Below are positions 1 through 2,870 of a stretch of 64,000 nt of DNA, in pieces (position 1 is the first letter of the stretch; each line of letters opens with the position of its first letter). The stretch is from Octopus vulgaris (taxonomy: Eukaryota): assembly GCA_951406725.2 (NCBI GenBank), contig OX597831.1:13454001-13518000 (forward strand), in the 5' to 3' direction. The position numbers and the translations under genes were made by a program. The notes under the pieces were generated by a model. The model was given only the letters and a program-made list of their open reading frames with translations. It had not been told where the DNA came from and ran no database searches.

Positions 1-224
1 CCCTAAAACCATGACAGTTGCAGGAAATTTTGTATACATCACAATTGGAACTAAGGTAGATCCAGCGACAATTGTGTAATTACTGTGGATGACGTCAGGT
101 CGCTATAAGCATGAACGTGCTTTATCGGTGTACTACAAGGAACATGCCCAATACGTTTAATATCAACTGTTATATATGTATTTATATGTATATATATATA
201 TATATATATACATATAGATGTGCG

Positions 225-614
225 TATAGATGTCTGTGCGTATTATAATATTTATATAAATAACGATGAGTGAATATATATGTATATATATATATGTATA
301 TATATTTGTGTGTATATATATATATATATATATCTATACAATATGTTACATTACTCGGTAGTCAAGATAAAACTCTGAGTTTCAGATGCCGAAGTGGAAA
401 TCCACAACACCATCTCATCGGTTATCTGGCTATTATCGGTTATCTGAAAATAGCCAGATAACCGATGAGATGGTGTTGTGGATTTCCACTTCGGCATCTG
501 AAACTCAGAGTTTTATCTTGACTACCGAGTAATGTAACATATTGTATAGATAAATTTCCTCTATTTACATAATATTGAGGTCTCTTTCTTTCTTTTGTTA
601 TCTTATCGTTTTAT

Positions 615-663
<49 letters not shown>

Positions 664-743
664 AATATATATACATATATATATACATATATATTCACTC
701 ATCGTTATTTATATAAATATTATAATACGCACAGACATCTATA
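225..743. repeat. Long fold-back (inverted duplication): inner arms 331-434/449-552 are PLE terminal-repeat sequence; outer arms ~225-330/~635-743 are TA-rich flank
   Basis: 449-552 is the reverse complement of 331-434. tatagatgtctgtgcgtattataat...gtgaatat (from 225) is mirrored by atattcac...cgcacagacatctata (to 743). Confidence 0.9.
456..508 (+). ncRNA. Type I hammerhead ribozyme-like motif with variant core; mirrored on - strand at ~375-427
   Basis: AGATAA-CCGATGA-GATG..(GTGGA TT TCCAC)..CATC-T-GAAA-CTC A GAG-TT-TTATCT. Helix I is AGATAA/TTATCT, helix III CTC/GAG, cleavage triplet GUU. Confidence 0.65.
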
Positions 744-1602
744 TTAATATAGTTATATATACGTTTCTTTTATAACGAGCACCTGCTCATTCAAATATGA
801 ATGGAAATCACCGCATGTATAACACACTTGACGTGACAGCCATGTATTGTCAGGAACCGGTGTTCACTTTCTCATTAATAAATTCCATTTTGCTGCCTTG
901 GAAATAATCGAAAAGTTTGTTCCTTATCGACACCATCCAACAAAACATCTGCGTGTGTGTGCCTGCGCATCTTTAGTTCGTATTAATTTACTACAAACAC
1001 AGGGAAATCAAATAAAATTCTATACTGCAATAATCGGAATATGTACATTTAACATTTATACGTTCCGGATCACTGAAACATGACAGTATTTACTTCAAGG
1101 ATTCTGTGCAGGACAAACGTCGGGCAAAGTCAGGGGAGAATCAGGCACCGGATTTCAGGTTACTTTCGCAGTGTTCGGAGCTTGGTGTGCTAACCACACG
1201 AAGCTACATAGGGGGTAAATTGTTTTCCGAGACGAACTCCGGGTAGGAATGCCATTCACATGAGAGTGTGCAAAATTTGTATGCACCATTATTTTGAACC
1301 TCGTCACCCAGTTTGTTTGTACTGAATATATATAAATTTCCAGTTGGTATAATACCATATACGAGGACATTATATCGATAGATATATGGGCTTCAGCTAA
1401 ATTATGTAATCGATATTGAAGAATATAGCAGTATTAATGGATCTGTAGTACACGATGGCATTGATCTGTTCAATCCGTGCGAGTTCCGTTTTTGATTTAA
1501 CAAGAAAGACAAGCATATGGATGAATAGGTTTACATTCATTTGAATAATTTCAAACGCACAACAAATTTGTGCACACGTCGTACGATGTGTTAATCTATC
1601 CG

Positions 1603-2678: not shown

Positions 2679-2870
2679 TCGGGTTCAGTCTCACTGCGTG
2701 ACACCTTTAGCAAGTGTCTTCTACTACAGCCGCCGGCCATGCTGGGGTAACACCTTCAGAGGTGTCTCCCAAATCAACTCCCATGCATTTGGGAGACACC
2801 TCTGAACGTGTTACTGCAATATGGCCGCAGCAAAATGACTGAAACAAGTAAATGCTAAAAGATAAAAGAT
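2679..2870 (+). mobile_element. Rearranged CORE-type SINE (family B) with internal hairpin
   Basis: cgggttcagtctcactgcgtg...gcaagtgtcttc head and atggccgcag..aatgactgaaacaag tail match the fuller copies at 25468 and 30691. Confidence 0.65.

What the first reader, a model, noticed from the sequence alone, without database searches (positions are those of the whole stretch)
225..743. Ribozyme fold-back insertion with inverted duplication of ~105 bp of flanking DNA
Seen in sequence: the pLTR forms a 104-bp perfect palindrome, and the TA-rich flank 225-330 reappears inverted at ~635-743. The right arm has ~65 extra element bases (553-617). The 14-nt apex contains atcggttatctg, a copy of 417-428. 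Established: PLE insertions often have an inverted, 5'-truncated pLTR. Inference: inverted rather than direct duplication of the target, plus a templated apex, suggests hairpin-primed synthesis or break repair at a self-complementary (TA)n tract.
Basis: partly seen in the sequence, partly recalled or inferred. Interest (0 to 1): 0.72.

Follow-up and report, generated by a model that had tools for sequence, protein, structure and literature searches.

The report
Penelope stub with mirrored flank copy
This nested palindrome is a common head-to-head stub of a Penelope-type jumping gene, and its one unusual feature, a mirror-image copy of about 105 bases of neighbouring DNA, is likely a rare slip made while the cell repaired the insertion site.

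Summary
The inner arms 331-434/449-552 pair at 104 of 104 bases, and the outer arms at 69 of 69 (225-293/675-743), continuing to about 330/635 with two microsatellite slips. The inner palindrome is ordinary. It is the pLTR end of a Hydra-clade Penelope-like element (2.58-kb unit, 708-aa ORF), with 2775 exact tail hits in the genome. Of 120 head-to-head insertions, 118 have one tail end and one short end, and templated apex inserts occur in 11 of 52 young copies. The outer duplication is not element sequence and is rare: 1 of 120 insertions (this one), plus one 39-bp candidate; 0 of 236 element-free (TA)n tracts carry a long one. The right copy looks ancestral, and the left junction carries a templated filler. 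Most likely both cut strands primed reverse transcription, then a free TA end snapped back and copied the flank before end joining. Similar foldbacks are published for L1. Reads could not test the left arm. This scan has noted such stubs many times before.

The parts
189..210 (.). pure (TA)11 run, likely the left remainder of the original target tract
   Evidence: role inferred
212..224 (-). templated filler at the outer left junction: 212-221 copies the reverse complement of 744-735, and 219-227 copies that of 733-725, with 3-base overlaps at both switches
225..330 (-). inverted duplicate of the right flank (84% A+T), ending in a 21-base TA run (313-333) at the element
   Evidence: no other full copy in the genome
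331..434 (-). inverted, tail-less pLTR arm (element positions 1-104), ending at the family's fixed internal TA-like site
365..427 (-). mirror copy of the hammerhead-like motif
   Evidence: symmetry with 456-518
435..447 (+). apex insert: 12-base copy of 417-428 plus one base
448..617 (+). sense pLTR arm with tail; 449-617 differs from the parent copy in L061 at 2 of 169 positions
456..518 (+). type I minimal hammerhead-like motif: 6-bp stem I, core with U4 changed to C, long stem II, 3-4 bp stem III with 1-nt loop, predicted GUU site at 510-512
   Evidence: all 22 pairs of the drawn fold are standard pairs; same layout as the Hydra-1_oBim row in File S2 of PMC8557442; no Rfam hammerhead hit
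553..617 (+). one-sided 'tail', about 65 bases
618..659 (.). pure TA run of 42 bases (target tract, right side)
635..743 (+). original flank, template of the duplication; continuous with the unique DNA to its right
   Evidence: window 703-1299 is covered by one contig in each of 4 of 4 runs, three organism labels

Best explanation
This is a young head-to-head stub of a Hydra-clade Penelope-like retrotransposon in a (TA)n tract, and the mirrored 105-base flank was likely added by repair synthesis during the same insertion event. Shown: family, structure, the two fixed 3' ends, same-template arms, rarity of the flank copy, templated filler. Inferred steps: (1) the element's GIY-YIG nuclease cut both strands of the TA tract; (2) each 3' end primed a cDNA from the same donor RNA, one at the tail end and one at an internal TA-like site about 65 bases upstream; (3) both cDNAs stopped near element position 0-1, probably the RNA 5' end, and were joined head to head by microhomology-type end joining, which left the 13-base insert; (4) at this locus only, the strand leaving the short arm ended in free (TA)n, annealed to the TA run beyond the tail on its own molecule, and copied about 105 bases of the right flank; (5) it slipped twice and was joined to the true left flank. 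The copy is most likely neutral.
For: Parent: tandem 2.58-kb units with a 708-aa ORF bearing RWK, DKT, YKDD, CxCX5C, a GIY-YIG-like motif, CxxC and CxH, the Hydra diagnostics in PMC8557442. 118 of 120 head-to-head insertions have one tail end and one short end. The short end maps to position ~107 by BLAST in 82 of 104. The two arms share the variable base at position 18 in 82 of 82 loci and minor alleles in 71 of 77 cases, against about 13 expected from independent donors. The Anolis PLE protein cleaves and extends both strands and starts at two sites that bracket the tail (PMC11167929). The inverted arm is longer in 20 of 34, shorter in 11, equal in 3; 18 of 52 young apexes are microhomology overlaps with no loop. 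The filler 212-224 is built from the right copy. The right copy runs unbroken into its flank in contigs of three organism labels. Both layers look young: 0 of 104 and 0 of 69 differences. L005 has a 39-bp inverted flank piece (37 of 39 identical) directly against the short-arm TA run. L1 insertions show foldback duplications of about 52-220 bp in 4 cases, 0.3% plus 0.1% (PMC10191854), explained by self-annealed 3' ends with TA/AT microhomology (bioRxiv 2024.12.14.628481).
Against: Steps 4 and 5 rest on one locus, which was chosen because it looks like this. Leaving it out, 1 of 119 insertions and 1 of 236 element-free TA tracts carry a short inverted piece (Fisher p = 1.0; with the window 2 of 120, p = 0.26), so no link to the element is shown statistically. 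The left arm was not seen in reads. The X1 contig, identical to the window over 597 bases, passes the expected branch at 743/744 unbroken, as it would with only one copy; contig simplification could also hide the branch. No empty allele was seen. The 20-of-34 count is biased, because copies were picked by a motif near the tail of the sense arm. Arm homogeneity could also come from fold-back copying or later conversion. In the L1 cases, as I read the passages, the duplication lies on one side of the insert, whereas here the element sits between the two copies.
Confidence: 0.5

Rival explanations
1. The flank palindrome came first: a break in the (TA)n tract folded back and copied 105 bases, and the element later inserted in the central TA run by its normal route.
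For: Short inverted pieces do occur around element-free TA tracts (L208, 18 bp). The filler shows repair synthesis but not its timing. The outer arms carry two slips and the inner arms none. 236 tracts in 671 kb extrapolate to about a million tracts, so coincidences are possible. No enrichment at element sites.
Against: 0 of 236 element-free tracts have a long duplication. Both events would have to be recent: the 69 unique bases are identical. The two slips sit in fast-changing microsatellite.
Confidence: 0.18
2. Single-strand fold-back with overshoot: one tail-primed cDNA folded back at its 3' end, copied itself to position 104, hopped over the tail by TA-like microhomology to the right TA run, and ran on for 105 bases before joining the left flank. 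This is closest to the first reader's hairpin priming and to the self-priming idea of PMC3846280.
For: It gives the whole structure in one polymerase track. It explains same-template arms (82 of 82), 5 private symmetric variants in 96 loci, and correlated truncation points (rho 0.65, n = 34). The short end is TA-like. The apex insert can be read as a snap-back copy.
Against: The inverted arm is longer than the sense arm in 20 of 34 insertions, and many apexes have no loop; both need an extra hairpin-opening step. In vitro data on another PLE show both strands extended from two start sites.
Confidence: 0.18
3. Assembly or polishing artefact: the element is real, but the left outer arm was written in from reads of the right flank misplaced across the palindrome.
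For: The left arm could not be checked in reads. The X1 contig crosses the expected branch point unbroken. Perfect palindromes in TA tracts are hard to assemble (general knowledge).
Against: A fold-back chimera would include the 65-base tail and equal TA lengths, and would not return to a distinct left flank through a doubly slipped filler. 119 other insertions of the family in the same assembly lack a long copy.
Confidence: 0.12
4. The outer arms are part of the element or of another repeat with terminal inverted repeats.
For: None found.
Against: The flank has no other full copy in the genome. It is absent next to 119 other insertions, including 19 counted from loci fetched by a search with the window's exact arm. 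The parent continues into its own sequence after the tail.
Confidence: 0.02

Closest known systems
Hydra clade of C-terminal EN+ Penelope-like elements, e.g. Hydra-1_Obim (Craig et al. 2021, PMC8557442; passages and supplement rows read)
   Same: Unit under 3 kb, single ORF, RWK, DKT, CxCX5C, CxxC and CxH motifs, (TA)n target, hammerhead layout with a 4-bp stem III and 1-nt loop.
   Different: By eye a different family from Hydra-1_Obim (no identity computed). Core U4 is C here. The tail is about 65 bases, against 30-40 in the paper's general description.
Inverted pLTR plus one-sided tail insertions of EN+ PLEs (Arkhipova et al. 2013, PMC3846280, passages; PMC8557442 Fig. 2 legend)
   Same: Head-to-head arms, 5' truncation, tail at one end only, palindromic junctions.
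   Different: Those cases have short direct TSDs or none. The passages I read report no inverted copy of flanking host DNA.
Poseidon of Anolis, in vitro mechanism (Frangieh et al. 2024, PMC11167929; parts 1-2 of 4 read)
   Same: Two fixed 3' ends bracketing a tail; AT-rich targets; both strands extended.
   Different: Different clade. There the start site is not homologous to the target, whereas both ends here are TA-like. The tail here ends about 105 bases before the ORF start (element position 276), not inside the ORF.
Foldback (inverted) duplications beside L1 insertions (Nam et al. 2023, PMC10191854, section 11 read; bioRxiv 10.1101/2024.12.14.628481, passages)
   Same: Rare, about 52-220 bp of local DNA copied in reverse, attributed to extra synthesis from a self-annealed 3' end; TA/AT microhomology in one case.
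   Different: In L1 the duplication is on the reciprocal (5' upstream) end. Here the element lies between the two copies, and the copy comes from the opposite flank. The event here appears germline, in an invertebrate, by a different enzyme.

Membership tests
Hydra-clade PLE (parent) | single ORF, RT followed by C-terminal GIY-YIG nuclease, unit under 3 kb | tested here: met
   708 aa in a 2.58-kb unit; YKDD at 346, GIY-YIG-like motif at 576; Pfam GIY-YIG only weak, E 0.013, below cut-off, and no RT hit
Hydra-clade PLE (parent) | RWK present, GxKF/Y absent, DKG changed to DKT | tested here: met
   RWK at 37, DKT at 114, no GxKF/Y
Hydra-clade PLE (parent) | CxCX5C linker in place of CX2-5CxxC; CxxC and CxH near the C-terminus | tested here: met
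   CxCX5C at 557, CxxC at 660, CxH at 691, no CX2-5CxxC
Hydra-clade PLE (parent) | insertion into (TA)n | tested here: met
   TA run found at the tail end in 100 of 104 and at the short end in 87 of 104 insertions (misses include older copies whose ends were mapped short)
Hydra-clade PLE (parent) | placement in the Hydra clade by RT phylogeny | not tested
   no tree built; reference proteins were seen only as text in the supplement
EN+ PLE inverted insertion unit | inverted 5'-truncated pLTR next to the direct one, tail at one end only | tested here: met
   (118 of 120)
EN+ PLE inverted insertion unit | direct target-site duplication | tested here: inconclusive
   cannot be told inside (TA)n; no informative direct repeat at this locus; 2 of 120 loci show one
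type I minimal hammerhead ribozyme | three stems around the core in type I order | tested here: met
   22 of 22 drawn pairs are standard; -13.1 kcal/mol against -18.4 for the minimum-energy fold
type I minimal hammerhead ribozyme | intact CUGANGA and GAAA core | tested here: not met
   U4 is C, and one extra U lies before GAAA in the drawn fold; the N7 position is the polymorphic site 18; no Rfam hammerhead match
type I minimal hammerhead ribozyme | self-cleavage | not testable with these tools
   needs an in vitro assay; a transcript through the palindrome would likely trap both motifs in a long hairpin (inference)
retrotransposon-associated foldback duplication (L1 type) | short inverted copy of local DNA, with microhomology or templated bases at the new junction | tested here: met
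retrotransposon-associated foldback duplication (L1 type) | made in the same event as the insertion (empty allele lacks both) | tested here: inconclusive
   no empty allele seen; region masked

The most novel reading that the evidence does not exclude
The tail-less end of every head-to-head Penelope insertion is resolved through a free (TA)n 3' end that can pair with either side of the cut. Inverted target copying is then a regular step that stays invisible inside pure (TA)n and shows only when synthesis overshoots into unique DNA, always on the short-arm side, as here and in L005. Such loci would be fossil intermediates that settle how PLE insertions are closed.
Probability: 0.15. Interest if true: 0.55.

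Novelty: new variant of a known kind. Interest (0 to 1): 0.24.

Why it matters
How Penelope-like elements make and close their inverted insertions is still open (PMC11167929 leaves the late steps unvalidated; PMC8557442 calls for mechanistic work). This family offers thousands of young copies with two fixed 3' ends and same-template arms, and rare accidents like this one would show which strand ends are free during resolution. As a single locus not checked in reads, it is a footnote: the stub is ordinary, and comparable foldback copies are known for L1. I found no report of one for a PLE in the listings or in the passages read, which is a limited search.

Tried and rejected
Rfam at gathering threshold: 0 hits in the window. 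At E up to 10 on 320-630, 24 hits, mostly miRNA precursor models that score any long hairpin, all below threshold and no hammerhead; rejected. Single-arm folds were not unusually stable (z -1.5, -0.6, -1.7). A 20-mer flank test missed L005, so I switched to 14-mers. An anchored extension test was swamped by pure TA matches (5 of 104 against 20 of 1500 controls at score 30) and was not used for the frequency. L155 scored as inverted but, by eye, is two diverged copies of another dispersed repeat; L186 is low-complexity noise; both are set aside in the 1-of-119 and 1-of-236 counts. Four of the 15 'templated' rows (L050, L056, L104, L112) are parsing failures and were dropped (11 of 52). The four arm discordances at position 18 vanished on proper alignment. 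A DNA search with 318-380 found nothing, not even the window itself, so it is uninformative. A sequence look-up of earlier findings returned nothing. The repeat-annotation paper PMC13282606 (passages) has no mention of palindromes or Hydra elements. Supplements of the bioRxiv L1 paper were not seen and may hold closer cases.

Full report
Observation. The sequence holds two nested inverted repeats. Exact comparison gives 104 of 104 paired bases for 331-434/449-552 and 69 of 69 for 225-293/675-743. Pairing continues to about 330/635 with a 2-base TA indel and one mismatch. The right inner arm has about 65 further bases (553-617), and 435-446 repeats 417-428.

What the inner part is. A search of the window's own genome (G000, 2.8 Gb) with 335-620 scored 40 of 337 candidates and returned near-full-length matches on many contigs. 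All 30 copies fetched are the same palindrome in TA runs, with variable apexes. A 32-base tail motif has 2775 exact hits, and 153 places have the two arms meeting within 30 bases of the same point. Tandem hits about 2580 bases apart led to the parent in L061: a 708-aa ORF whose unit contains the arm at 167 of 169 identity. The protein has RWK, DKT, YKDD, CxCX5C, a GIY-YIG-like motif, CxxC and CxH, and lacks GxKF/Y and CX2-5CxxC. These are the features given for the Hydra clade in PMC8557442 (passages). Pfam gave only a sub-threshold GIY-YIG hit. The supplement lists a cephalopod member, Hydra-1_Obim, 2507 bp, targeting (TA)n, with a hammerhead of the same layout; by eye it is a different family. 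That the host is an octopus is my guess from genome size and repeats, echoed by unchecked scan notes; I did not test it.

Family anatomy. Of the first 100 places listed, I examined 82 (the other 18 lie in multi-copy clusters, partly fetched). The sense arm ends at the tail in nearly all (BLAST end 174 in 69 of 82), and 47 of 82 show an inverted piece upstream within the 3 kb held. Across 222 loci, 120 distinct head-to-head insertions had both outer ends; 118 have one tail end and one short end. In an earlier set of 104, the short end mapped to about position 107 in 82 and to 95 in 10 older copies; the real junctions fall at positions 101 or 104 inside a TA-like motif. The arms of one insertion share variants: 82 of 82 at position 18, and 71 of 77 minor alleles against about 13 expected for independent donors. 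Truncation points of the two arms correlate (rho 0.65, p 3e-5, n = 34), with the inverted arm longer in 20, shorter in 11 and equal in 3 (biased by selection on a tail-side motif). Among 56 young apexes parsed, 4 were parsing failures. Of the other 52, 11 have a templated insert of 7 or more bases (this locus included), 18 a microhomology overlap, 17 a short insert, 4 a blunt join and 2 another insert. So the palindrome, the tail and the templated apex are routine. The inverted pLTR with one-sided tail is published (PMC3846280, passages; PMC8557442), and this scan has filed such stubs many times (33 notes in at least 14 genomes; several in this genome).

The hammerhead. On the + strand, 456-518 can be drawn as a type I minimal hammerhead in which all 22 pairs are standard; that fold is 5 kcal/mol above the minimum. 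U4 is C and an extra U precedes GAAA; the polymorphic site 18 falls on N7. Rfam gave no hammerhead match. Minimal PLE hammerheads are thought to act as dimers and cleave weakly (PMC4209133, part 1 read). Activity here is untested.

The outer duplication. It is not element sequence: only the two local copies match fully in the genome. With informative 14-mers in 300 bases on each side, 1 of 120 insertions (this one) reaches 20, and 3 of 120 reach 3. Of the other two, L155 is by eye a pair of dispersed repeats. L005 has 37 of 39 identical bases inverted, set directly against the short-arm TA run as in the window. Controls: 21 of 11,130 mismatched flank pairs reach 20; 0 of 236 element-free (TA)8+ tracts in 671 kb reach 20, and 2 reach 3, one an 18-base piece and one noise. 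Without the window the rates are 1 of 119 and 1 of 236 (p = 1.0). The event is rare and no link to the element is shown statistically.

Which copy is new. In 4 of 4 runs laid (X1 and X2 of organism A, X4 of B, X19 of F), one contig covers window 703-1299, including the outer 41 bases of the right copy and its continuation, with 0, 8, 12 and 12 differences. The right copy is therefore likely ancestral. At the left outer junction, 212-221 copies the reverse complement of 744-735 and 219-227 that of 733-725, with 3-base overlaps, next to a 22-base TA run. That is a doubly slipped templated filler of the kind left by microhomology-mediated end joining (recalled; no call). Against this: the tool masked 169-346 and 585-702, so the left arm is unverified, and the X1 contig crosses the expected branch at 743/744 unbroken. 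That fits a single copy in X1, or removal of a short branch next to TA tangles; I cannot tell which.

Mechanism. For the family I favour dual priming: a PLE protein cleaves and extends both strands and starts at two sites that bracket the tail (PMC11167929, parts 1-2 read), which matches the one-long, one-short rule, the loopless apexes and inverted arms longer than sense arms. Both arms often stop near element position 0 (14 of 82 sense arms start between -2 and 8), which I infer is the RNA start. For this locus I add one accident: the strand leaving the short arm ended in free (TA)n, paired with the TA run beyond the tail, copied about 105 bases outward, slipped and was joined to the left flank. 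L1 shows foldback duplications of about 52-220 bp in 4 somatic insertions, 0.3% plus 0.1% (PMC10191854, section 11), modelled as synthesis from a self-annealed 3' end with TA/AT microhomology (bioRxiv 2024.12.14.628481, passages). The geometry differs, because here the element lies between the copies. Rivals: duplication first and insertion later (0.18); one cDNA folding back and skipping the tail (0.18); assembly artefact (0.12); element-borne arms (0.02).

Verdict. A real, ordinary Hydra-clade stub with one uncommon repair by-product that is unverified in reads. I found no PLE case of it in five paper searches (listings and the passages named), but a close L1 analogue exists. The retrozyme preprint (10.64898/2026.07.22.740005, part 1 of 5 read) concerns tandem units and does not bear on it. 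New variant of a known kind; interest 0.24.

Noticed in passing
L005 (G000:C1, about 10,478,750-10,479,260): Second insertion with an inverted flank piece: 37 of 39 bases, directly against the short-arm TA run, with the matching piece about 24 bases into the tail-side flank.
   Followed up: partly
L061/L062 (G000:C1:57,208,700-57,222,600): Tandem array of about five 2.58-kb units with an inverted block at one end; one unit has an open 708-aa ORF, two others in L061 are frameshifted.
   Followed up: partly
element position 0 (window 448): Hot spot of 5' truncation just before hammerhead stem I, at a C-A step; 14 of 82 sense arms start between -2 and 8. Possibly the transcription start; a splice-acceptor-like run also lies here.
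   Followed up: partly
older copies such as L032, L034, L047, L099: An older subfamily has its short end at about position 95 instead of 101-104, at a different TA-like motif.
   Followed up: no
L039 and L153: Direct rather than inverted flank repeats: about 45 bases abutting the element in L039 (TSD-like, by eye) and 67 bases displaced in L153.
   Followed up: no
L208:6876-7002: 18-base inverted piece on both sides of an element-free TA tract.
   Followed up: no
window 2734-2827: 41-base inverted repeat, 88% complementary, 12-base spacer, inside what looks by eye like a common dispersed repeat.
   Followed up: no
L011 and L016; L158 and L161: Pairs of loci with identical apexes or flanks, suggesting duplication of whole insertions after landing.
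   Followed up: no
L069:409-1530 (minus strand, about 7 kb left of the window): 373-aa ORF that looks like the reverse transcriptase of a LINE (by eye).
   Followed up: no
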